A stretch of 24,000 nucleotides of DNA from Avibacterium paragallinarum (GTDB lineage: Bacteria > Pseudomonadota > Gammaproteobacteria > Enterobacterales > Pasteurellaceae): NCBI RefSeq assembly GCF_900450705.1, contig NZ_UGHK01000002.1:1220970-1244969 (forward strand). The letters are read 5' to 3'. The notes beneath the pieces are model-generated. The model had not been told where the DNA came from, ran no database searches, and saw nothing but the letters and a program-made list of their open reading frames with translations. Position 1 is the stretch's first letter; each line of letters starts with the position of its first letter. Below, piece after piece: positions 499 to 22,530 of this stretch. A program made the position numbers and the translations under genes.

Positions 499-529
499 AC
501 CGCACTTTGCAAAAGTGCGGTATTTTTTT
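499..529 (+). terminator. Rho-independent terminator built from an inverted pair of uptake signal sequences
   Basis: ACCGCACTT (499-507) and AAGTGCGGT (513-521) form a 9-bp stem with a 5-nt loop, followed by ATTTTTTT (522-529). It lies 49 nt after the ychF stop. Confidence 0.8.
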
Positions 530-557: not shown

Positions 558-1457
558 ATGACAATGACAATTCTTGACGGTGGAATGAGCCGTGAATTAA
601 TGCGTTTAAACGCCCCTTTTCGTCAGCCTGAATGGTCAGCCCTTGCTCTTTATGAGTCACCGCAAGCGGTACAACAGGTACACGAAGATTTTATCGCAAA
701 TGGTGCTGAGGTAATCACGACAAATAGTTATGCGGTTGTGCCTTTTCATATTGGTGAACAGCGTTTTGTGGTGGACGGAAAAATACTTGCCGATCTCGCG
801 GGGCGTTTAGCTAAAAGTGCGGTACAAAATAGTGGAAAATCGGTCAAAATTGCAGGTTCATTGCCTCCATTATTTGGCTCATACCGCCCTGCTTTATTTC
901 AACCTGAGCGCGTAAAAGAAGTAGCTCAGCCTATCATTGACGGGCTTTCTCCTTATGTGGATCTCTGGTTGTGCGAAACGCAAAGTGCGATTATTGAACC
1001 TCAATCCATTAAGCCATTATTACCTGATGATCGCCCACTTTGGGTTTCTTTCACTTTACAAGATGAAGATCTCAATCAACCGGCGTGTTTACGTTCAGGC
1101 GAATCTGTGCAAAGTGCGGTGGAAAAAATGATCGAATTGGGTGTCAGTGCGATCTTATTTAACTGTTGTCAGCCAGAAGTGATTGAGCAAGCCTTAGCTA
1201 TTACCCGTGAAACCTTACAAAAACACGGAGCATTACATATTGAAACAGGGGCATATGCCAATGCTTTTGCACCACAAGGTAAAGAAGCAACAGCCAATGA
1301 AGGGCTTGATGAAGTGCGTCAGGACCTCGATCCGCAAGCCTATTTAGCTTGGGCGAAAAAATGGCAACAAGCTGGAGCAACGATTATTGGCGGGTGCTGT
1401 GGGATTGGTTTAGCTCATATTCAGGCACTCTCTCATTATTTCAAACCGCAGATTTAA
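558..1457 (+). CDS. Homocysteine S-methyltransferase family protein (MmuM/YbgG-like, Pfam S-methyl_trans type)
   Basis: 'MTMTILDGGMSRELMRL...ITTNSYAV...LWLCETQS...LFNCCQPE...IIGGCCGIGLAHI' carries the family motifs, including the Zn-ligand cysteines (CET, NCC, GGCC). I prefer ATG 558 (AAGGA at 546-550) over the ORF-track start at 507, which lies inside the upstream terminator. Confidence 0.8.
   Translation: MTMTILDGGMSRELMRLNAPFRQPEWSALALYESPQAVQQVHEDFIANGAEVITTNSYAVVPFHIGEQRFVVDGKILADLAGRLAKSAVQNSGKSVKIAGSLPPLFGSYRPALFQPERVKEVAQPIIDGLSPYVDLWLCETQSAIIEPQSIKPLLPDDRPLWVSFTLQDEDLNQPACLRSGESVQSAVEKMIELGVSAILFNCCQPEVIEQALAITRETLQKHGALHIETGAYANAFAPQGKEATANEGLDEVRQDLDPQAYLAWAKKWQQAGATIIGGCCGIGLAHIQALSHYFKPQI
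815..823 (+). repeat. Uptake signal sequence core (Hin-type USS)
   Basis: Exact AAGTGCGGT. Confidence 0.85.
1112..1120 (+). repeat. Uptake signal sequence core (Hin-type USS)
   Basis: Exact AAGTGCGGT. Confidence 0.85.
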
Positions 1458-14492: not shown

Positions 14493-14532
14493 GCCTTGTT
14501 ATAGCTAAATTGATTTCCGCTTTATACAAGGC
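14493..14532 (+). terminator. Weak candidate stem-loop after dsbD
   Basis: GCCTTGT (14493-14499) pairs with ACAAGGC (14526-14532) and is followed by TTTGAG. The loop is large and the U-tract poor. Confidence 0.25.
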
Positions 14533-14630
14533 TTTGAGCCAATGACAGTACAAGCTAAGTAAACGCCATAAGAAAATGAAAGAAGTTTAGCTATAGTTTA
14601 AATTAAACAGCTATATCTTTATTAGAGATA

Positions 14631-14700
14631 TATAGTCGTTTGATTTCAAAATAATACGGCGTTACATCGCCTTGTCTTATTTTGAAATCAAACGACTATA
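14631..14700. repeat. 70-nt perfect long inverted repeat (24-bp arms, 22-nt spacer with a nested GGCG/CGCC stem)
   Basis: Left arm TATAGTCGTTTGATTTCAAAATAA (14631-14654). Right arm TTATTTTGAAATCAAACGACTATA (14677-14700), an exact reverse complement. The spacer TACGGCGTTACATCGCCTTGTC contains GGCG (14658-14661) and CGCC (14668-14671). Neither arm is followed by a T-tract. Confidence 0.9.
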
Positions 14701-14708
14701 CTATTCCT

Positions 14709-14900
14709 AAACATTATACTGAGTTTGACATCCTCCCCGCCCTAAAGGACGGGGATTCCTACTAGTGCCAATTGGCAAGCAATGGGCTACTCTCGGTGGG
14801 TTCTTGTTGCTGACCTCTCAATGAAGTTCACTTCACAAGCTATACGGGCATGTCCTGCCCTGACATTTTATTACGCGTGGACGATAGCTCGCCCACGCCC
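14709..14900 (-). ncRNA. Predicted TnpB omega-RNA (reRNA): scaffold from the tnpB 3' end and right end, plus about 16 nt of flank as guide. The 5' end is not determinable from sequence
   Basis: 146 nt of non-coding but visibly structured sequence lies between the tnpB stop (14871) and the predicted RE terminus (14725). On the minus strand this includes GGGCA..TGCCC, the palindrome GCCAATTGGC and the RE hairpin CCCCGTCCTTTAGGGCGGGG. In characterised IS200/IS605 TnpB systems the guide RNA is encoded exactly here and reads through the RE into the flank. Confidence 0.4.
14735..14754 (-). repeat. Right-end (RE) subterminal imperfect hairpin of the IS605-type element
   Basis: The plus strand reads CCCCGCCCTAAAGGACGGGG. 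The outer stem is 5 bp (CCCCG/CGGGG), with an inner CC/GG and a bulged base. Confidence 0.7.
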
Positions 14901-16007
14901 CAATACATTTAACGCTCCAACCACATCGGCATTTTCTGTGTAGCCACATTCTACACACTCAAAATTAGCCTGTGTTTGGCGATTTTCTTTTGCTACATGA
15001 CCACAACAAGGGCAAGTTCGACTCGTGTTTTGCGGTGGCACTGCCACTAAAAATCCACCTTGCCATTGCGTTTTGTAATCCAACTGACGGCGAAACTCAA
15101 ACCAAGATTGATCTAATATCGCTTGGTTCAACCCTGATTTTGCAGCAACATTTTTGCCTGGTGTTTCCGCCGTACCTTTGGCTGATTTTGACATATTTGA
15201 CACCTGCAAATCTTCAATATAGATCATGGCGTGGTTTTTGCTGATTTTGCTTGAAGTCTGATGCAAGAAGTCTTTGCGACAATTGGCAATTTTATGGTGC
15301 AGTTTGGCAATTTTCGCCTTTAATTTCTGCCAATTTTGGCTAAATTTTACTTTATTTTTAAGCCTCTTTTGCAGTTTAGCCAATTTTCCTTTGTAAGTTT
15401 TAAAGGCGTTAACCGGTTCAAAATATTCACCATTTGACAATGTTGCAAAACGTGCAACGCCCATATCAATACCGATTTCACCGCCTTTATGTGTCGGGAT
15501 TTCGTACTCAAATTCAGTTTGAATACTGACAAAATAGTGACCGCACTTTTGGCTGACGGTAACATTTTTGATTTCACCAACGATATCTCGGCTGTTGCGA
15601 TAGCGAATCCAGCCGATTTTTGGCAAAAATAAGCGGTCATTTTCCTGTTCTAATTTGCAACCTTGCGGAAAACGAAAGCTCTCTTTCACGCCTTTTTTCT
15701 TGAATTTTGGAAAGTCGGCACGTTTCTGAAAGAAATTTTTAAACGCACTTTCTAGGTCTTTTAAAGACTGTTGAAGCACTTGAGAATGGCATTCTTTTAG
15801 CCAAACTAATTCTTTTTTCCATTGTGGAAGCAAGTTGGCGATTTTAGTGTAACTGAACTTAAAGCTGTTATCTTGCTCGTATTGTTCATTTTGCCAAGCC
15901 AATGCCCGATTGAACACAAAACGAGAGCAACCGCAAAATTGCTTGATTTTACGGGTTTGTTCGCCATTCGGCATTATCTCGAACTTAAAGGTTTTGCGTA
16001 GTTGCAT
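14871..16007 (-). CDS. tnpB: TnpB (IS605 OrfB family) RNA-guided RuvC-like endonuclease, apparently intact, 378 aa
   Basis: The N-terminus 'MQLRKTFKFEIMPNGEQTRKIKQF' is typical of the family. RuvC-like acidic motifs are 'EIGIDMGV', 'MIYIEDLQV' and 'TENADVVGALNV'. The zinc finger reads 'CPCCGH...ECVECGY'. The ORF-track start at 16013 is a TTG; the first ATG is at 16007. Confidence 0.85.
   Translation of the reverse strand: MQLRKTFKFEIMPNGEQTRKIKQFCGCSRFVFNRALAWQNEQYEQDNSFKFSYTKIANLLPQWKKELVWLKECHSQVLQQSLKDLESAFKNFFQKRADFPKFKKKGVKESFRFPQGCKLEQENDRLFLPKIGWIRYRNSRDIVGEIKNVTVSQKCGHYFVSIQTEFEYEIPTHKGGEIGIDMGVARFATLSNGEYFEPVNAFKTYKGKLAKLQKRLKNKVKFSQNWQKLKAKIAKLHHKIANCRKDFLHQTSSKISKNHAMIYIEDLQVSNMSKSAKGTAETPGKNVAAKSGLNQAILDQSWFEFRRQLDYKTQWQGGFLVAVPPQNTSRTCPCCGHVAKENRQTQANFECVECGYTENADVVGALNVLGRGRAIVHA
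15540..15548 (-). repeat. Uptake signal sequence core (Hin-type USS) inside tnpB
   Basis: Exact ACCGCACTT on the plus strand, within the tnpB coding sequence. Confidence 0.85.
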
Positions 16008-16052
16008 TGACAAGGTTTAGAATGTAAGTTTTCCATATTTTACCCTTGGCCT

Positions 16053-16286
16053 ATGCAAAAAGAAACAGAAATTAGGCACGGTAGACATTGTGTTTTTAAT
16101 ATGCATGTTCACTTAGTCTTTGTAACAAAATCAAGCCGAATGATTAGGAAGAAAAACTACCCGAACATCCGCAAAAAACTTTGGGGTAATCAGCTGTGGT
16201 CTCCGTCTTATTTTGCGGGCTCTTGCGGTGGTGCACCTATTTCCATTATTCGCCAATACATTGAGCAACAACAAACACCTGATTAG
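16053..16286 (+). pseudogene. tnpA: IS200/IS605 Y1 (HUH) transposase TnpA remnant with an in-frame internal deletion (77 aa)
   Basis: 'MQKETEIRHGRHCVFNMHVHLVFVTK' is a family N-terminal strand. It is fused directly to 'SSRMIRKKNYPNIRKKLWGNQLWSPSYFAGSCGGAPISIIRQYIEQQQTPD', a family C-terminus. Full-length relatives are about 130-155 aa, so the central part is missing. Confidence 0.7.
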
Positions 16287-16324
16287 TTAGGTTTGAAACG
16301 GCTTACGCCGTTTGTGCCTTATAT

Positions 16325-16344
16325 CTCCGCCCTGAAGGACGGAG
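16325..16344 (-). repeat. Left-end (LE) subterminal imperfect hairpin of the IS605-type element
   Basis: The plus strand reads CTCCGCCCTGAAGGACGGAG. It differs from the RE hairpin at positions 2, 10 and 19. Positions 2 and 19 pair with each other and change C:G to T:A, which is compensatory. Confidence 0.7.
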
Positions 16345-16365
16345 TTTTACGGCACATAATCTGAT

Positions 16366-16397
16366 AAAAAAAGCGAATCAAAGGTGATTCGCTTTTT
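16366..16397 (-). terminator. Rho-independent terminator of the adhesin gene (bidirectional geometry)
   Basis: GCGAATCA (16373-16380) and TGATTCGC (16385-16392) form an 8-bp stem with a 4-nt loop. It is flanked by A7 (16366-16372) and T5 (16393-16397). On the minus strand it reads GCGAATCACCTTTGATTCGC-TTTTTTTAT, starting 20 nt after the adhesin stop. Confidence 0.85.
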
Positions 16398-16416: not shown

Positions 16417-19400
16417 CTAAAAGGTAAATCCAACACTCATTGCTGCCCCTTTATCTCCGTTACTCGTACTCATACCAGATAAACGGATACCTACTTTTCC
16501 ATTATCAGAGAGTCTAGACATCCCTATTGCAACAGCATTCTCCCCTTTGAACGTTGCTGTACCTACGGAAATCGTTGTTTTCCCTGGTAAAACAACATTT
16601 TGTAGGCTTGCCGTCGCCATTGCACCTGCAATACCTGCACGCGACTCCCGTGTTAAATCGCCAATACGTTGATTAACTTGATTGAAATTATTTTGAACAT
16701 TATCAATCACAGTATTTAATTGACCTCGATTCACCGCACTGGTTGGGTCATCACTCGCTTTAACGCCAGTAATCACTTTATTACCTGCGTGGATTCCACC
16801 ATTGTTGATTACAATGCTATCTCCCTTTTGAGCATCAGGAGCTGTATTTGGAATCTTAACCTCATCAATCGCGATTTTCTTATTCAGTGAAACTTTCACC
16901 TTATTATCATCAGTAATAGATGTTGTCACATTCTCATCACCAACAATTTCAACGGTTTCATTAAGTTTCTTATTAATCACTTTCTCCCCGTCGGCTTTGA
17001 ACTTCAAGCCATCATCCATTGTAGCAAATGAGGTTTCCACTTTTTCAAGTTGCCCATCAGCATTTGTTCTTTCAATCGTCACAGAGAGACGGCTCAAATC
17101 ATTTCCATCAATATCTTTACCTTTCTTAGAGGAAAGGGTGACTTGAGAATCATCATTGCCGACTAAAGTTAATGCCCCATTTTGTCCATCAAGAACCGCT
17201 CTTGGTTTCGCCTCTTTATCACTGAGAACAAGCATATTTTTCTCGTTATTAAAGACCATCGCTGCATTCCCGTCATCTTTGTTAGTGATAACCAAAGCAT
17301 TACCTTCTTGTGCGGCTAATTTTGCCTTCTCAGGCTCATTTGAACCAATTACCAAGTTATTCTCAATAGAAATATTTGGCTGTAATGAAATCCCCACTTG
17401 ATTACCCGCAGAAATCGTTGTTTTCACATTATGATCTCCGTGAATCTTGAGGCTTCCACCTAACGGCACAGCCAAGTGATCATCAACCAATGCCGTATTC
17501 ATCTCTGGCAATGTTGGCTGTGTCGGCGCAATATCCCCCGTTGCTACATTACCTGCTGGTGCTACACCACCCGCCGTATTCGCCGTTGTCGCCCCACCTT
17601 GAGTGCTAGATGCTGTAGGTGCTGTTGTTTGAGTCTTCGTTGGACTAACTTCATCACCATACACGCGAATACCTTTCTGCATTAAGGCGTAGAGCTGACG
17701 ACCTGTCACTACATCACCACTGGTTGGAGAAATATCCCCATCGGCGACATTACTAATTTTCTTATTCCCAGCATCAATACCATCAATACCTGTTGCCAAA
17801 ATACCTACCTTTGATCCCCAACCTGTATTCACAGCGGTGGTTAATTTATCCACCGCGTCTTTAAAGGTGGTTGGAGCCGTGCCGTTTATCGGATTAAAGA
17901 TAGAGGTTTGATTTGGATCTTTGGTTACCGCTAAATCTGTTGTGCCTAATGCGTCATTGATCGCTTTAAAAAGTTTATCTAACTGACCTTTATTCACCGC
18001 ATCGGTGTCTGCCGTCCCTGCTTTCACGCCAGAGACTTTAATGCCATCTGTTGCTGCATTGCCTGCACCAGATAAAGATAAAGTGCGGTCATTTCCTGAG
18101 CCAGATTTTGTTAGCACAATGCCCTCTGTCTCGCCGCCCACGGTTACTGTGCCGCCAGCGATGATATTTCGAGAAGCATTCAAAGATTCAGTTGCGATAG
18201 TTTTTAAGCCTATTAATTTATCTTTTAAGGTGAATTTCACCACACCACTATCTTCCACTGAAGCATCAATATTGGTCGTGCTAGTAAAATTCAATCCGTC
18301 AGTCAATTTAACTGTTTTACCGTTTTTATTGTCCGCTTTATATGCCAATGTCGCATCGGTAAGAGCTTGCTTCACATCAGAAATGGCTTCACTGATCGTT
18401 GTTTTCTCAGTACCGCCAATTTTAGCCCCGCTATCAACCCCTAATAAGGTACGCAACTGCCCCCCATTTACCGCATCTTTTGAATTTGCCGTAATGTTAC
18501 CATCTGCAACACCAGTCAATTTAATCGCCGTTCCGGTTGCGTTCCCCGCAAGAGTAATCGCATCTTGGGCTAAGGTGATGCGAGATTTATCGGAGGTGTT
18601 ATCCGCTTTTAAGGCTATGCCCGATTTAGTTACTTCAACGTGTTCTGCATTTTCCGCACCGATAGATAATTTTGTCGGGGCTAATTTGCTTTCATCGCTG
18701 CCATTTTTCACCGAGAAGCCATCACGACTTACTTTCACTAAGTTTGTTTGAGCAGAATTTGTTGTGCTATCAATGGTTAAGCCATCTTCTGCAAAAGTGG
18801 TGGTTGAACCATTTGTTGTGTCGCCTTTTTTGAAGGTTAAACCCGCACTGCTCATTCTGCCCGTAACTTGATTTGGATCTTGCCCTGACTTATCAAAGGT
18901 AATGCTGTTTACCCCTTCAATGTCTTTCATTAAGCCGACAGTGAAGGTTTTTTTCTTGTTGTTATCGGTAGAAGGCTCAACTGTGATCGGTGAATTTGCT
19001 TTTTTCACCACATCCACCAAGCCAGTAATGCCTTTGTTGGCTTCTGCTGAAACCGTTGGTTTTGCACCTTTAAGTGCTTCATAGACAGCTTCCCCTGACA
19101 CCACTTCTTCTTCTGTTGCCGAAAGCGAGATCAATTTGGTGAGAACATTATTAATCGCATCGTGGATTGTATCTTGCCCTGTGCCGCCAATATTTGTAAA
19201 TGTAATTGTGCCATCAGTGGCAAGGTTTGCATTACCGCCAAAATTCGTTTTAACGGATTGAGCCAGTTTGTTCAACATAAAGTTCGTTGCATAAAGCTGT
19301 GAGCCGTTAATGGCTTCAGTAGAAGTTTGCGAAATATTGCCTGCTGCAACATTAACAATTTTACGCTCTTTCCCAGCCGTTCCGATACTTAACACACCGA

Positions 19401-22400
19401 GTGTTTCAGGGGAACCTGCAAAATTATTGAATGTTAAACCATTTATCGTCGCTGAACTTGTACGGCTAATTGCGGAATTGGCAACCGTCGAATCTTGCCC
19501 CAATGCAATGGAAGGTTTTCCACCCGCAGTAACCGTTGCACCTTTACCAATCGCCACTGCCCCTGTCATTGAGGTATCCGAATTCGTACCGATAGAAATG
19601 GCATTTTCAGCGGAAGAATTCGCTTGGAAACCAATCGCAATGGCTTGTTTCCCTGCTAATCCATTATTAGCTCCTGAGGTTTTTGCCTGCCAGCCAAATG
19701 CAATACTGTCTTGCCCTTTTGCACCATCATTAAGATAGTTATTATTGGCTTTTAACTGTGCAATTACTTGAGGGGTTAAGCCGCCTACATTTCTTGCTGA
19801 ATCCGCATTGCTTGCATTCTCAATCTGCGTTTTATATTGATTAAATTTGTCGAAGTTATTTGTGGTTGCTTCTTGCTCTAATTGTGTTGCAACCTGATTG
19901 AGAGCTGACGCGGTTGTTTTTAACTCGCCACTATATTCCGCTTCAAGTTCTTGCACTACCGCACGAATTTTGTTTAATGAATTTTGATCAAACTTCTCTC
20001 CATTTAATTTTCCTCGTGCATCTAAATAGAGCAATTGTGTTTTTAATTTCACATATCGCTCATAACTTTCCCCTTTACGAATTTGGCTAGCCACTCTCCC
20101 CGATTGTCCATTGATATTCGTTTTTTCAACAGAGAGATATTTCACCCCACCGCCATTTTGTAATAAATTAATTTCAGATAGGAAACGTTCTTCAACGGTT
20201 TTTAACTGAGCAACATTCACGGCATCAGTATCAGAAGAACCCGAAGCAAGATTCACAATACGACGTTCTGAACCTTTTGAACCCACAGAGATAACCCCAG
20301 TTTTACCTGAAGTTGGGATACTGATTGCCCCTTCAGATACCCAAGGATCGGTTTCTAACTGTTCCCAAGTGTAATCTGTTTTAGAGCCTACCCCAAGTGC
20401 GGTGGAATTTTGCAAAGTTGCTTGAGCATAAGCACCAATCGCCATCGAGTTAATCCCCGTTTCCATTTTGCCCGCCCCACGCGAAACTTTAGCATTAAAA
20501 CCTAATGCCATTGCTTGACGCATATAATCGCTACTTTCATTAAAGTTTCTAAAGGCTCGAGTAGTTTCATCATAAACTTGAGGCTGATACAAAGTACCAT
20601 TATCTGTATCTTTAGCGTCAATTCGTGCCTCTTTACCAATGGCTAAGCTGTCAGGGGATTTGGCACTTTTCGCAATAGTAGAACCCATACCTAATGCCAA
20701 TGAAGAAGCACTATCATTACCAATAAAGACATTCACCCCGATTGCTAATGCATTCTGAGAACCTGAGCTAATTGAAGTGGAATTCCCTAGCACAACTGTC
20801 CGATCTGAAAGGGTTGATGCCCAAGTCCCCCCTAAGAAACTGTTTTCCCCTTTGGCATAACTTCCCACACCAATTGTGATTGTATTTGCTGCTGAAGATT
20901 CCACAAAAGAATAAGAACCTAGTGCAAAGGCATTTTGGGCATCGGCTAAGGCATAGCTCCCTAATGCCACAGAATTTGCTTTAGAGGCAAAGGTTTTACT
21001 ACCAATTGCAATGGCATTTTTACCTCCCCCCGCACTGCTGTCTGTTGTTGCAGTTTTTTTAATTGCTCCCGATGAGGTCGTTAAATAGGTTTCGTTTTCA
21101 CTTACCAGCGGTAATCCATTAGTAAGCATATTATCAAAAGACTGGGTAAATACAGTAATCGCATTTCCGGTTTTAGTATCATCTGATTTATCGGCATTTT
21201 TTAAGGTAGCATAAGCATTATTATCCTGTAGTAAATTTCCTGTTTGATAGCTATTAAATTTAGCCCCTGCTGCGACTTCTGTCCCAATTGCGATTGCTCC
21301 CGCACCTACTGCTTTCGCCTTATAACCATAAGCCATTGAGCCAGCATTTGAGGCTTCAGTTTTATTACCAATGGCAACGGAATCTTTAGCAAAGGTTCGA
21401 GATTCTTCCCCGATCGCCGTTCCACCTACGGCGTCTTTAGCAACAAAAGAACGTAACCCCATTGCGGTGGATCTATCTGCCAATGCAAAGGCTAACGAAC
21501 CCACTGCGGTGGACATTTCCCCCGCGGCAATGGTGCGGGAACCTAGAGCAATTGCCCCTAATTTCCCTGCATAAGTAGGTGAAGCAGTTGGGGTATTGAC
21601 ATATTTTCCTTTAAAATCGCTAAATTTATAAAATGCCTCCGGTTTATTAGGGTCTCGAGTAGTTGTATCATAATCTCTGCCGTTAGTCTGTTTCCCCATA
21701 TATAACTCAGAAAATATATCCCAAATGGAGTTTTTCGGAACAGTGCCTGTTCCATTCCAAGCAGTAGCAGGCAATTTGTCATTATACTTAGTCCCTGATA
21801 TTTTATCAGTCCCTATAGCAATGCTTGATTTTCCTTCCGCAAAGGTTCCTGCCCCAATAGAAATAGAATTGGTTTTTGACCACGAATTTTGCCCTAAAGA
21901 AACAGATTGATTCCCAGCACTTTTCGCATTTTCCCCAATCACTACAGAACCTTGACGGGTTTCTTTACTAGTTCTACGGGGATCTAATTGTGTATAAGCA
22001 TTAAGACCCATCACAATAGATTTTTCAAAACGGTTAATCGCCTGTTTTCCAATAGTCACAGAACTTGGTGCTGTGCTTTCATTTTTTGCCCCATAACCAA
22101 TGGCAATAGAGTCTTTCGCTAAAGTTTCATTTTTTACCCCAAACCCAAGAGCAATAGCTCCTGTTGCAGATCTATCGTTGGTTGCACCATAGCCAATAGC
22201 AACCCCTTGTAGGCTATTTGTGCCAACACTCTCAGCTCCCGATGGATTAAGATTAACACTATTACTTTGTGCACTAACAGTAGATAGTTTTACGGAGCTA
22301 CTATAAACCTCTAACCACTTCGCATTAGCCAATTGAGGGAATAATGATGCTCCTAGTGCGATATTAATGAGAAGAGCAAGATATGTACACTTTGTAAATA

Positions 22401-22530
22401 GCGGTTGAAAAAATGCAGTATTATGTGTGTTTTTTTGGCTAGCTGTTTTATCTTTATTATTTGCTAGCTCTGAAACCACAATCATTTCTTGTTTTACAAC
22501 AGAATATTTAATTTTAAAAACTTTATTCAT
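16417..22530 (-). CDS. Giant trimeric autotransporter adhesin (type Vc; YadA/Hia/Hsf/EmaA class), 2037 aa
   Basis: N-terminal extended signal peptide region 'MNKVFKIKYSVVKQEMIVVSELANN' plus a hydrophobic core ending 'LANA|KW' at about residue 70. Many YadA-head-type repeats are present ('SIAIGYGAKN', 'AIALGSRTIA', 'SVAIGNKTEA' and similar). Six neck-type connectors are present ('DAVNVAQLK', 'EAINGSQLY', 'DAVNGGQLR', 'DAVNKGQLD', 'DVVTGRQLY', 'SAVNRGQLN'). The C-terminal YadA-type anchor reads '...RAGIAGAMATASL...ISVGTATFKGENAVAIGMSR...AAMSVGFTF'. RBS AGGAAAA lies upstream. Confidence 0.9.
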   Translation of the reverse strand: MNKVFKIKYSVVKQEMIVVSELANNKDKTASQKNTHNTAFFQPLFTKCTYLALLINIALGASLFPQLANAKWLEVYSSSVKLSTVSAQSNSVNLNPSGAESVGTNSLQGVAIGYGATNDRSATGAIALGFGVKNETLAKDSIAIGYGAKNESTAPSSVTIGKQAINRFEKSIVMGLNAYTQLDPRRTSKETRQGSVVIGENAKSAGNQSVSLGQNSWSKTNSISIGAGTFAEGKSSIAIGTDKISGTKYNDKLPATAWNGTGTVPKNSIWDIFSELYMGKQTNGRDYDTTTRDPNKPEAFYKFSDFKGKYVNTPTASPTYAGKLGAIALGSRTIAAGEMSTAVGSLAFALADRSTAMGLRSFVAKDAVGGTAIGEESRTFAKDSVAIGNKTEASNAGSMAYGYKAKAVGAGAIAIGTEVAAGAKFNSYQTGNLLQDNNAYATLKNADKSDDTKTGNAITVFTQSFDNMLTNGLPLVSENETYLTTSSGAIKKTATTDSSAGGGKNAIAIGSKTFASKANSVALGSYALADAQNAFALGSYSFVESSAANTITIGVGSYAKGENSFLGGTWASTLSDRTVVLGNSTSISSGSQNALAIGVNVFIGNDSASSLALGMGSTIAKSAKSPDSLAIGKEARIDAKDTDNGTLYQPQVYDETTRAFRNFNESSDYMRQAMALGFNAKVSRGAGKMETGINSMAIGAYAQATLQNSTALGVGSKTDYTWEQLETDPWVSEGAISIPTSGKTGVISVGSKGSERRIVNLASGSSDTDAVNVAQLKTVEERFLSEINLLQNGGGVKYLSVEKTNINGQSGRVASQIRKGESYERYVKLKTQLLYLDARGKLNGEKFDQNSLNKIRAVVQELEAEYSGELKTTASALNQVATQLEQEATTNNFDKFNQYKTQIENASNADSARNVGGLTPQVIAQLKANNNYLNDGAKGQDSIAFGWQAKTSGANNGLAGKQAIAIGFQANSSAENAISIGTNSDTSMTGAVAIGKGATVTAGGKPSIALGQDSTVANSAISRTSSATINGLTFNNFAGSPETLGVLSIGTAGKERKIVNVAAGNISQTSTEAINGSQLYATNFMLNKLAQSVKTNFGGNANLATDGTITFTNIGGTGQDTIHDAINNVLTKLISLSATEEEVVSGEAVYEALKGAKPTVSAEANKGITGLVDVVKKANSPITVEPSTDNNKKKTFTVGLMKDIEGVNSITFDKSGQDPNQVTGRMSSAGLTFKKGDTTNGSTTTFAEDGLTIDSTTNSAQTNLVKVSRDGFSVKNGSDESKLAPTKLSIGAENAEHVEVTKSGIALKADNTSDKSRITLAQDAITLAGNATGTAIKLTGVADGNITANSKDAVNGGQLRTLLGVDSGAKIGGTEKTTISEAISDVKQALTDATLAYKADNKNGKTVKLTDGLNFTSTTNIDASVEDSGVVKFTLKDKLIGLKTIATESLNASRNIIAGGTVTVGGETEGIVLTKSGSGNDRTLSLSGAGNAATDGIKVSGVKAGTADTDAVNKGQLDKLFKAINDALGTTDLAVTKDPNQTSIFNPINGTAPTTFKDAVDKLTTAVNTGWGSKVGILATGIDGIDAGNKKISNVADGDISPTSGDVVTGRQLYALMQKGIRVYGDEVSPTKTQTTAPTASSTQGGATTANTAGGVAPAGNVATGDIAPTQPTLPEMNTALVDDHLAVPLGGSLKIHGDHNVKTTISAGNQVGISLQPNISIENNLVIGSNEPEKAKLAAQEGNALVITNKDDGNAAMVFNNEKNMLVLSDKEAKPRAVLDGQNGALTLVGNDDSQVTLSSKKGKDIDGNDLSRLSVTIERTNADGQLEKVETSFATMDDGLKFKADGEKVINKKLNETVEIVGDENVTTSITDDNKVKVSLNKKIAIDEVKIPNTAPDAQKGDSIVINNGGIHAGNKVITGVKASDDPTSAVNRGQLNTVIDNVQNNFNQVNQRIGDLTRESRAGIAGAMATASLQNVVLPGKTTISVGTATFKGENAVAIGMSRLSDNGKVGIRLSGMSTSNGDKGAAMSVGFTF
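18081..18089 (+). repeat. Uptake signal sequence core (Hin-type USS) inside the adhesin gene
   Basis: Exact AAGTGCGGT. Confidence 0.85.
20395..20403 (+). repeat. Uptake signal sequence core (Hin-type USS) inside the adhesin gene
   Basis: Exact AAGTGCGGT. Confidence 0.85.

What the first reader, a model, noticed from the sequence alone, without database searches (positions are those of the whole stretch)
14725..16363. IS605-type element that keeps an intact TnpB nuclease while its TnpA transposase is gutted
Seen: the divergent ORF pair consists of a 378-aa TnpB and a 77-aa partner. TnpB has all three RuvC-like acidic motifs (GIDMGV, IYIEDL, ENADVVGALN) and an intact CxxC..CxxC zinc finger. 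The partner starts like an IS200/IS605 Y1 transposase (GRHCVFNMHVHLVFVTK) and ends like one (LWSPSYFAGSCGGAPISIIRQYIEQQ), but has no middle. Both subterminal hairpins survive, and their only stem differences are compensatory (C:G to T:A at paired positions 2 and 19). Established: full-length TnpA is about 130-155 aa and carries the HUH motif centrally, and TnpB is an RNA-guided DNA endonuclease that works with an RNA encoded at the right end. Inference: the element can no longer move by itself, yet the nuclease ORF, the RNA-coding region and both ends look conserved. This pattern fits either retention of TnpB for a host or element-maintenance function, or mobilisation in trans by another copy. 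A perfect USS (15540-15548) sits inside tnpB, which suggests long residence in, or acquisition by transformation among, Pasteurellaceae.
Basis: partly seen in the sequence, partly recalled or inferred. Interest (0 to 1): 0.7.

Follow-up and report, generated by a model that had tools for sequence, protein, structure and literature searches.

The report
Crippled jumping gene with intact nuclease
This is an ordinary insertion sequence of the IS200/IS605 family in Avibacterium paragallinarum that has lost the middle of its transposase gene but keeps its RNA-guided nuclease and guide-RNA region; this is the commonest state for this family, and sister copies show the nuclease decaying too.

Summary
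Window 14725-16363 is a 1,639-bp IS605-type element. It sits 3' of a TTTAT target, at the end of the terminator of a YadA-like adhesin gene. It carries a full-length TnpB (378 aa) with the RuvC D/E/D residues and the zinc finger present. It has a guide-RNA (omegaRNA) scaffold with strong covariation support, and both subterminal hairpins. The tnpA remnant (77 aa) has lost 183 bp in frame. These are residues 27-87 of a 138-aa transposase and include the HUH motif.

The same deletion junction occurs at 8 or more different insertion sites in Avibacterium, Gallibacterium anatis and metagenomes. Two copies that differ by only 8 bases lie at different sites. Full-length tnpA copies exist in related genomes. 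The element is therefore a non-autonomous derivative moved in trans, not a host-retained nuclease. In sister A. paragallinarum assemblies the same copy has a 59-bp deletion that removes the RuvC-II glutamate of tnpB, and the G. anatis UMN179 copy has a stop codon.

tnpB without a working tnpA is the majority state in this family (Meers et al. 2023). This is ordinary: a new member of a known kind.

The parts
14725..16363 (-). Whole non-autonomous IS605-group element, 1,639 bp. The top strand is the window - strand. The left end (LE) is at 16363 and the right end (RE) at 14725.
   Evidence: Homology with more than 40 related copies starts and stops exactly at these positions. The full-length reference in L023 is about 1.82 kb.
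16364..16368 (-). TTTAT target site abutting LE. It is the predicted transposon-adjacent motif (TAM) for TnpB and is not part of the element.
   Evidence: TTTAT, rarely TATTAT or TTTAC, precedes LE in nearly all copies, while the flanks further out are unrelated.
16287..16363 (-). Left end. There are 19 nt from the cleavage site to the hairpin CTCCGTCC-TTCA-GGGCGGAG (16325-16344). AAAA lies directly 5' of the stem.
   Evidence: The stem shows compensatory variants in other copies, for example CCACGTCC/GGGCGTGG and CACTGCCC/GGGCGGTG.
16053..16286 (+). tnpA remnant, 77 aa. Residues 1-26 are joined to residues 88-138 of a 138-aa Y1 transposase. The HUH motif is deleted and the C-terminal Tyr helix (RQYIEQQ, Y69) is kept. 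The junction is at 16130/16131.
   Evidence: The alignment of the full-length protein to IS608 TnpA 2A6M places HUH inside the deleted block.
14871..16007 (-). tnpB, 378 aa, intact. RuvC residues are D181, E265 and D361. The zinc finger is C332/C335/C351/C354.
   Evidence: The exact protein is WP_035695966.1, named RNA-guided endonuclease TnpB family protein.
14725..14860 (-). omegaRNA scaffold and right end. It has six local helices downstream of the tnpB stop and ends in the hairpin CCCCGTCC-TTTA-GGGCGGGG (14735-14754) followed by AGGATGTCAA. A possible long-range helix pairs 14923-14927 with 14727-14731.
   Evidence: The consensus has 40 pairs, 22 with compensatory changes. 97% of cells are paired against 37-50% in slid controls, and 0 of 500 shuffles reach the observed values. 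The window keeps 39 of 40 pairs. There are sub-threshold Rfam hits to HgcC (30 bits, E=2e-4) and sot0042.
14709..14724 (-). Predicted 16-nt guide of the omegaRNA, ACTCAGTATAATGTTT, read from the DNA flanking RE.
   Evidence: The position follows by analogy with ISDra2 and ISGst omegaRNAs, which is an inference. The only perfect match in the window is the flank itself.
15540..15548 (-). Hin-type uptake signal sequence core AAGTGCGGT inside tnpB, in the codons for QKCGH.
16368..16397 (.). Terminator hairpin of the YadA-like adhesin gene (16417-22530, -). The end of its T tract supplies the TTTAT target.
   Evidence: (I12).

Best explanation
This is a non-autonomous deletion derivative of a roughly 1.82-kb IS605-group insertion sequence (IS200/IS605 family) that is widespread in Pasteurellaceae.

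A single 183-bp in-frame deletion removed residues 27-87 of the Y1 transposase, including the HUH metal-binding motif. This copy therefore cannot excise or integrate by itself. That conclusion is inferred from the loss of HUH.

Everything needed in cis is shown to be kept:
- the TTTAT target next to LE;
- both subterminal hairpins, with IS608-like spacing (19 nt at LE and 10 nt at RE) and tetranucleotides 5' of the stems (AAAA and GAAT);
- tnpB;
- the omegaRNA scaffold.

The deleted lineage has been moved to new TTTAT sites by TnpA supplied from full-length sibling copies, and it has also recombined with sibling elements.

The likely working of TnpB here is inferred from the published ISDra2 and ISGst work. 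TnpB would be loaded with an omegaRNA whose guide is read from the flank (ACTCAGTATAATGTTT). When a trans-acting TnpA excises the element, TnpB would cut the scarless donor joint TTTAT+guide, so that the copy is restored from the sister chromosome.

In this strain the copy sits harmlessly behind the terminator of an adhesin gene. Whether any working TnpA exists in this genome is unresolved.
For: - **Identity and borders:**
- **Deletion mapped against a full-length copy and against IS608 TnpA:**
- **Spread of the deleted form:** the same junction sequence is found in 8 or more different flanking contexts, each directly after TTTAT. L086 and L089 differ by 8 substitutions in 1,639 bp yet lie at different sites.
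- **Source of TnpA in trans:** full-length tnpA plus tnpB copies occur in about 10 other species genomes. Full-length TnpA occurs in G. anatis UMN179 alongside a deleted copy.
- **omegaRNA:** covariation is strong and the window copy keeps 39 of 40 pairs.
- **Selection on tnpB:** pN/pS is about 0.05-0.13 in all comparisons.
- **Published model:** the role of TnpB and the frequency of tnpA-less tnpB elements come from the Meers et al. preprint.
Against: - No intact TnpA could be shown in A. paragallinarum. The only second copy I could see (strain JF4211) is annotated with a 97-aa TnpA fragment that keeps HUH but lacks the N terminus. I could not fetch its DNA.
- The exact TnpB protein is on record at this one locus only.
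- Mosaic structure shows that recombination, and not only transposition, spreads the deletion allele. The tnpA remnant is nearly identical between copies whose tnpB genes differ by pS 0.25-0.39. Window against L081 is 80-85% identical over 14725-15600 but 95-100% over 15601-16363. The low pN/pS therefore cannot be assigned to the period after the deletion.
- No promoter-like site was found inside the element.
- No expression or cleavage data exist.
Confidence: 0.72

Rival explanations
1. It is an inert relic. The identity is the same, but in A. paragallinarum the copy has no TnpA partner. It is simply a recent arrival whose tnpB has not yet been hit, and it is on its way to the decayed states seen in sister strains.
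For: - tnpB is broken in the same copy in L079/L080 by a 59-bp deletion, and in L081 by a stop codon.
- tnpB is broken in 13 of 24 copies with defective tnpA against 3 of 13 with intact tnpA.
- The species representative genome returned no copy at all in the genome scan.
- The second JF4211 copy appears to be N-terminally truncated.
Against: - The omegaRNA keeps 39 of 40 pairs and tnpB has no defect.
- The window, L077 and L078 all keep it intact, with 3-10 substitutions.
- The deleted lineage as a whole has clearly moved.
Confidence: 0.2
2. The deletion allele spread by natural transformation and homologous recombination (gene conversion) into resident full-length copies, rather than by transposition in trans.
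For: - Mosaicism is strong.
- The hosts carry dense USS, and the element itself carries a conserved USS.
- The deletion-bearing segment is nearly identical between Avibacterium and Gallibacterium, while the tnpB 3' halves differ by 15-20%.
Against: L086 and L089 are almost identical over the whole element yet sit at different sites. This is what transposition of the deleted unit predicts. Conversion would also need a resident copy at each of 8 or more sites.
Confidence: 0.05
3. Host or element domestication. Either TnpB and its omegaRNA serve a host function, or the 77-aa in-frame remnant, which keeps the Tyr helix but no HUH, acts as a dominant-negative inhibitor of TnpA dimers in the manner of KP-type repressors of P elements.
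For: - The deletion is in frame.
- An independent in-frame deletion of nearly the same extent exists in Pusillimonas (79 aa, L090), along with in-frame 92-aa and 74-aa forms.
- All 10 nucleotide differences between the window and L081 remnants leave the protein unchanged.
Against: - The protein search could only recover in-frame forms.
- At the DNA level, 9 or more other tnpA deletions of all sizes exist, and most remove nearly the whole ORF.
- The silent differences cluster in a 22-nt tract and match full-length alleles better, which fits recombination.
- The RuvC residues are intact and LE/RE are kept, unlike the domesticated TldR proteins.
- tnpB is lost in sister strains.
- Presence varies between strains.
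Confidence: 0.03

Closest known systems
IS608 / IS605 of Helicobacter pylori (IS200/IS605 family, IS605 group)
   Same: - The full-length TnpA of this family aligns over its whole length with IS608 TnpA 2A6M (E=2.5e-22), with HUH and the catalytic Tyr/Gln in register.
- tnpA and tnpB are divergent, as in IS605.
- It has subterminal hairpins and no terminal inverted repeats.
- It inserts 3' of a short target without duplication.
- RE ends in TCAA 10 nt after the hairpin, with GAAT 5' of the stem. LE has 19 nt between cleavage site and hairpin. This matches my recollection of IS608 geometry, not a test done here.
   Different: - The target is TTTAT rather than TTAC.
- AAAA rather than AAAG lies 5' of the LE stem.
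- This copy lacks the catalytic core of TnpA.
ISDra2 of Deinococcus radiodurans (TnpB/omegaRNA reference system)
   Same: - TnpB is a full-length homologue (8EXA/8H1J, E about 8e-51, residues 4-369 on 4-369) with D/E/D and the zinc finger.
- The omegaRNA lies at the tnpB 3' end and RE.
- The 5-nt TAM equals the transposon target.
   Different: - The TAM is predicted to be TTTAT, against TTGAT in ISDra2.
- The protein is 378 aa against 408 aa.
- No biochemical data exist for this protein.
Non-autonomous tnpB-only elements (IS1341 group; ISGst2-5 of Geobacillus stearothermophilus, Meers et al. 2023)
   Same: tnpB plus omegaRNA sit between conserved LE and RE, with no working tnpA, and are mobilised in trans by a TnpA encoded elsewhere. 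This is the majority state of tnpB genes.
   Different: A recognisable in-frame tnpA stub is still present here, so the copy is an early stage of the path from IS605-type to IS1341-type. Related loci show the later stages: tnpA fully gone in L007, L008, L012, L016 and L020, and an ORF-less PATE-like form on plasmid pHS129.

Membership tests
IS200/IS605 family, IS605 group | Y1 HUH transposase TnpA (HUH motif plus catalytic Tyr) | tested here: not met
   This copy keeps only profile positions 75-121 of Y1_Tnp plus the first 26 aa. HUH is deleted. Full-length sibling copies meet the feature, so this copy is a defective derivative of a member.
IS200/IS605 family, IS605 group | TnpB with a split RuvC (D, E, D) and a zinc finger | tested here: met
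   Pfam and NCBIfam give full-length matches. It aligns to ISDra2 TnpB structures. Catalytic residues are D181, E265 and D361, with a CxxC...CxxC finger.
IS200/IS605 family, IS605 group | Subterminal imperfect palindromes at both ends on one strand, with no terminal inverted repeats | tested here: met
   Hairpins lie at 16325-16344 and 14735-14754, with compensatory changes between the ends and between copies. The T.G pair on the - strand becomes a C.A mismatch on the + strand, which fits a - top strand.
IS200/IS605 family, IS605 group | Insertion 3' of a conserved 4-5 nt target, with no target-site duplication | tested here: met
   TTTAT precedes LE in nearly all of about 40 copies. RE flanks are unrelated and do not repeat the target.
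IS200/IS605 family, IS605 group | Structured omegaRNA encoded at the tnpB 3' end and RE | tested here: met
   22 of 40 pairs show compensatory change and 97% of cells are paired, well above both the slid and the shuffled controls. The window copy keeps 39 of 40 pairs. No Rfam family reaches its gathering score, and HgcC is sub-threshold.
IS200/IS605 family, IS605 group | RNA-guided, TAM-dependent DNA cleavage by TnpB, and TnpA-dependent excision and integration | not testable with these tools
   This needs plasmid-interference and excision assays.
TldR-type domesticated TnpB (RNA-guided transcription factors) | Inactivated RuvC site, loss of transposon ends, and a fixed association with a host gene | tested here: not met
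   The RuvC residues are intact. LE and RE are present. The element sits at many unrelated sites and is broken or absent in sister strains.
IS1341 group (tnpB-only elements) | tnpB as the only gene between LE and RE | tested here: inconclusive
   This copy is functionally equivalent because it has no working tnpA, but a 77-aa tnpA stub remains. The relatives L007, L008, L012, L016 and L020 have lost tnpA completely.

The most novel reading that the evidence does not exclude
In naturally transformable Pasteurellaceae, a tnpA-less element may keep TnpB and its omegaRNA because the pair protects the insertion against replacement by incoming 'empty-site' alleles. It would cut any chromosome in which transformation has restored TTTAT+guide. 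This would be a retention role that needs no transposase at all. A second variant is that the in-frame 77-aa TnpA stub, which has the Tyr helix but no HUH, poisons TnpA dimers and damps excision.
Probability: 0.07. Interest if true: 0.55.

Novelty: new member of a known kind. Interest (0 to 1): 0.17.

Why it matters
It matters little on its own. tnpB elements without a working tnpA are the norm, and both ORFs already carry the family-level RefSeq names 'RNA-guided endonuclease TnpB family protein' and 'transposase' (the 77-aa ORF is not flagged as a truncated remnant).

The modest value lies in the family as a whole. One dated deletion allele can be followed across two poultry pathogens and 8 or more sites. 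The family also shows every stage of decay:
- tnpA+tnpB;
- an in-frame stub;
- tnpB only;
- tnpB broken;
- an ORF-less LE+omegaRNA form on small plasmids.

This makes it a convenient natural series for studying how IS605-type elements turn into IS1341-type elements and PATEs. It could also be used to test whether TnpB helps retention in naturally competent hosts. The predicted TTTAT TAM and the compact 378-aa TnpB could interest people who collect TnpB orthologues.

Tried and rejected
- **Host-domesticated TnpB.** Rejected. The catalytic residues and the transposon ends are intact, the element is at many sites, and tnpB is broken in sister strains.
- **A naturally short 77-aa TnpA.** Rejected. 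Full-length proteins are 134-138 aa and align end to end with IS608 TnpA.
- **Selection on the 77-aa stub.** The 10 silent differences looked suggestive, but they cluster and fit recombination with full-length alleles. DNA-level deletions in the family show no preference for in-frame stubs, although the sizes from BLAST end points are only approximate.
- **pN/pS as a test of selection after the deletion.** Rejected as uninformative, because the copies are mosaics.
- **Fetching the second element copy of strain JF4211.** Failed.
- **Looking for the empty site in metagenomes.** No hit.
- **Plasmid and phage collections.** These gave only end fragments and no complete copy.
- **Rfam at gathering thresholds.** Nothing was found.
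- **Literature.** A literature search found no paper that mentions both Avibacterium paragallinarum and IS605.
Full report
**1. What is in the window**

The region holds two divergent ORFs.
- tnpB lies at 14871-16007 (-) and encodes 378 aa. A TTG six bases upstream would give 380 aa.
- A 77-aa ORF lies at 16053-16286 (+).

The large ORF matches HTH_OrfB_IS605, OrfB_IS605 and the Cas12f1-like TNB domain in Pfam. In NCBIfam it matches the subfamily guided_TnpB at 367 bits over residues 9-371. It aligns over residues 4-369 with the solved ISDra2 TnpB structures (8EXA, 8H1J; E about 8e-51).

- GIDMGV at aa 179-184
- IYIEDL at aa 262-267
- ENADVVGALN at aa 358-367
- CPCC...CVEC at aa 332-355

The exact 378-aa protein is WP_035695966.1 of Avibacterium paragallinarum, already named 'RNA-guided endonuclease TnpB family protein'. 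The 77-aa product is WP_080558801.1, 'MULTISPECIES: transposase [Pasteurellaceae]'.

**2. The transposase remnant**

The 77-aa ORF matches only positions 75-121 of the 121-position Y1_Tnp profile. Relatives are 134-138 aa and carry DDHVHLL in the middle.

The closest full-length element is L023 from Pasteurella langaaensis. It encodes a 138-aa TnpA whose residues 1-26 and 88-138 are identical to the window product. That full-length protein aligns end to end with IS608 TnpA (2A6M, E=2.5e-22). This alignment puts the HUH histidines inside the missing block and the catalytic Tyr (RQYIEQQ) in the retained tail.

At the DNA level the loss is 183 bp, in frame, with the junction at window 16130/16131 and a 2-nt AT microhomology. 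That last step is an inference from the loss of HUH.

**3. Borders, target and ends**

A scan of one genome per species with TnpB returned 76 loci.

In more than 40 of these loci, homology to the window stops at exactly two places:
- It stops at 14725. Every copy ends ...GGAGGATGTCAA there.
- It stops directly after a TTTAT. The first element base is 16363.

Flanks beyond these points are unrelated between loci, and no target duplication is seen.

On the - strand, which is the tnpB sense, the ends have the following layout:
- **LE:** 19 nt lie between the cleavage point and the hairpin CTCCGTCC-TTCA-GGGCGGAG, with AAAA just 5' of the stem.
- **RE:** it has GAAT, then CCCCGTCC-TTTA-GGGCGGGG, then 10 nt ending in TCAA.

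From my memory of the IS608 literature, this is the IS608 geometry, and the RE tetranucleotide and cleavage pair are the same as in IS608. It was not tested here.

Other copies show further compensatory stem variants.

The insertion lies at the end of the T tract of the terminator of a 2,037-aa YadA-like adhesin gene.

**4. The guide-RNA region**

I aligned the last 230 nt of 33 copies. RNAalifold gave a 40-pair consensus, and 22 of the pairs keep pairing through changes on both sides.

With controls:
- 97.0% of cells are paired, against 37-50% when partners are slid by 1-3 columns.
- 146 cells have double changes, against 7-28 in the slid controls.
- 0 of 500 shuffles reach the observed values.

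The window copy forms 39 of the 40 pairs. The scaffold runs from about 14860 to 14725 (-). The guide would be the flanking ACTCAGTATAATGTTT (14724-14709).

Rfam has no family that reaches its gathering score. The permissive scan found HgcC (30 bits, E=2e-4) and sot0042 over this stretch. Both are RNAs that overlap the ends of IS605-type elements; that link is my recollection.

**5. Is tnpB specially retained?**

The identical 77-aa product was looked up in public assemblies. The results were:
- L077 and L078 are the same dsbD / element / adhesin locus as the window, and tnpB is intact.
- L079 and L080 are most likely also A. paragallinarum. The adhesin flank is 96.5% identical, and a protein accession for the stub is assigned to that species. 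They have the same LE junction but a 59-bp deletion (15181-15239) that shifts the frame and removes IYIEDL.
- L081 is G. anatis UMN179. It carries the deleted form at another site, with a stop at codon 262.

I classified all loci roughly from tblastn. Among copies with an intact tnpA, tnpB was intact in 10 and broken in 3. Among copies with a defective tnpA, tnpB was intact in 11 and broken in 13. Fisher's exact test gives p=0.09.

There is thus no sign that tnpB is kept better once tnpA is gone.

**6. Has the deleted form moved?**

Look-ups of the 97-99% identical 77-aa variants added more loci. All carry the same junction sequence, GTAACAAAATCAAGCCG; the L081 copy has a single substitution in it (...CAAGTCG). 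They lie in 8 or more different flanking contexts, each directly after TTTAT.

L086 and L089 differ by 8 substitutions in 1,639 bp yet lie at different sites. This is what transposition of the deleted unit, necessarily in trans, predicts.

Full-length 138-aa TnpA proteins are on record from the same G. anatis UMN179 chromosome that holds L081. About 10 species genomes hold complete tnpA+tnpB copies.

The copies are also mosaics:
- Window against L081 is 80-85% identical over 14725-15600 but 95-100% over 15601-16363.
- Copies of the deleted lineage have nearly identical stubs but tnpB genes with pS of 0.25-0.39.

Recombination between sibling elements therefore also spreads the allele. tnpB shows pN/pS of about 0.05-0.13 throughout. 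Because of the mosaicism, this cannot be assigned to the time after the deletion.

For A. paragallinarum itself, I found only one other copy (strain JF4211). It is annotated with a 97-aa TnpA fragment that keeps HUH but lacks the N terminus. I could not fetch its DNA.

**7. The USS**

AAGTGCGGT occurs 12 times in the window, against 0.12 expected. The Apl-type core does not occur at all.

The tnpB site (15540-15548) is conserved in nearly all Pasteurellaceae copies, often with the T-rich extension. The Neisseria, Kingella and Pelistega copies read AAATGCGGT there. Long residence in Pasteurellaceae is a fair reading.

**8. Comparison with what is known**

The element works like IS608/IS605 in its TnpA and ends. 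It works like ISDra2 and the ISGst elements in its TnpB and omegaRNA, where the TAM equals the target. The membership features I could test are met, except the transposase in this copy.

Meers et al. (2023 preprint, read) make three relevant statements:
- Only about 25% of tnpB genes have a tnpA nearby.
- Most IS605-family elements are non-autonomous and are mobilised in trans.
- TnpB cuts the vacated donor joint so that the element is recopied.

The window copy is an early stage of that well-known path. Later stages are visible in related loci: tnpA gone entirely (L007, L008, L012, L016, L020) and an ORF-less LE+omegaRNA unit on plasmid pHS129.

It is not a TldR-type domesticated TnpB.

**9. 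Verdict**

This is an ordinary non-autonomous IS605-family element. It is a new member of a known kind, and a literature search found no paper that mentions both A. paragallinarum and IS605. Interest is low.

The least ordinary readings that remain open are both unlikely. One is that TnpB/omegaRNA guards the insertion against replacement through natural transformation. The other is that the in-frame stub inhibits TnpA.

Noticed in passing
L091 about 1093-1337 (- strand), Histophilus somni plasmid pHS129; also G. anatis plasmid NZ_CP126976.1 (hit H3): A roughly 250-nt ORF-less unit of the same family sits on small plasmids. It consists of TTTAT, LE with its hairpin, then the omegaRNA scaffold and an RE ending GGAGGACGTCAA. 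It is a PATE-like end state of the decay series.
   Followed up: partly
L092 36-176, Actinobacillus pleuropneumoniae plasmid p9555: A 141-nt fragment, 97% identical to window 16223-16363 (the tnpA 3' end plus LE), lies next to a hairpin on a mobilisable plasmid. No tnpB or RE is present.
   Followed up: partly
window 14725-14764 (RE terminal 38-40 nt): This stretch is 97-100% identical in 74 Klebsiella plasmids and in Variovorax, Pseudomonas, Azotobacter and Ralstonia phage RpY1. In several of these it lies at annotated TnpB genes. The RE / omegaRNA 3' module is thus extremely conserved across distant hosts.
   Followed up: no
L079 and L080 position 2731/2732, against window 14724/14725: Sister assemblies share the LE junction and the adhesin flank, but their sequence changes exactly at the RE end to an unrelated flank with two porin genes instead of dsbD. 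This points to a rearrangement at the element border, possibly recombination with a second copy.
   Followed up: partly
window 14631-14700 and 14500-14595: A 27-nt-arm inverted repeat (96% complementary, 16-nt loop) starts 24 nt beyond RE, where a read-through omegaRNA would end. A second inverted repeat lies upstream of it. There are no other copies in the window and the function is unknown.
   Followed up: partly
window 16136-16238 against L081: The two tnpA stubs differ at 10 nucleotides yet encode identical proteins, including a TCT to AGT serine switch. Eight of the differences cluster in 22 nt. I read this as a recombination tract from a functional allele, but that is not proven.
   Followed up: partly
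L015 (Histophilus somni) and L090 (Pusillimonas sp. ANT_WB101): These carry independent in-frame tnpA deletions. The H. somni form is 92 aa and joins the two HVHL-like motifs. The Pusillimonas form is 79 aa, two codons longer than the window form, and sits next to a 404-aa TnpB.
   Followed up: partly
L018, L025, L027 (Lonepinella koalarum), alignment A2 columns 130-160: The number of tandem TCTGTCA units varies between copies, directly 5' of the first omegaRNA stem at the tnpB 3' end.
   Followed up: no
window 499-521: Two USS cores lie in opposite orientation 5 nt apart. This is one of 12 USS cores in the window, and such pairs typically act as terminators in Pasteurellaceae, which is my recollection.
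   Followed up: no
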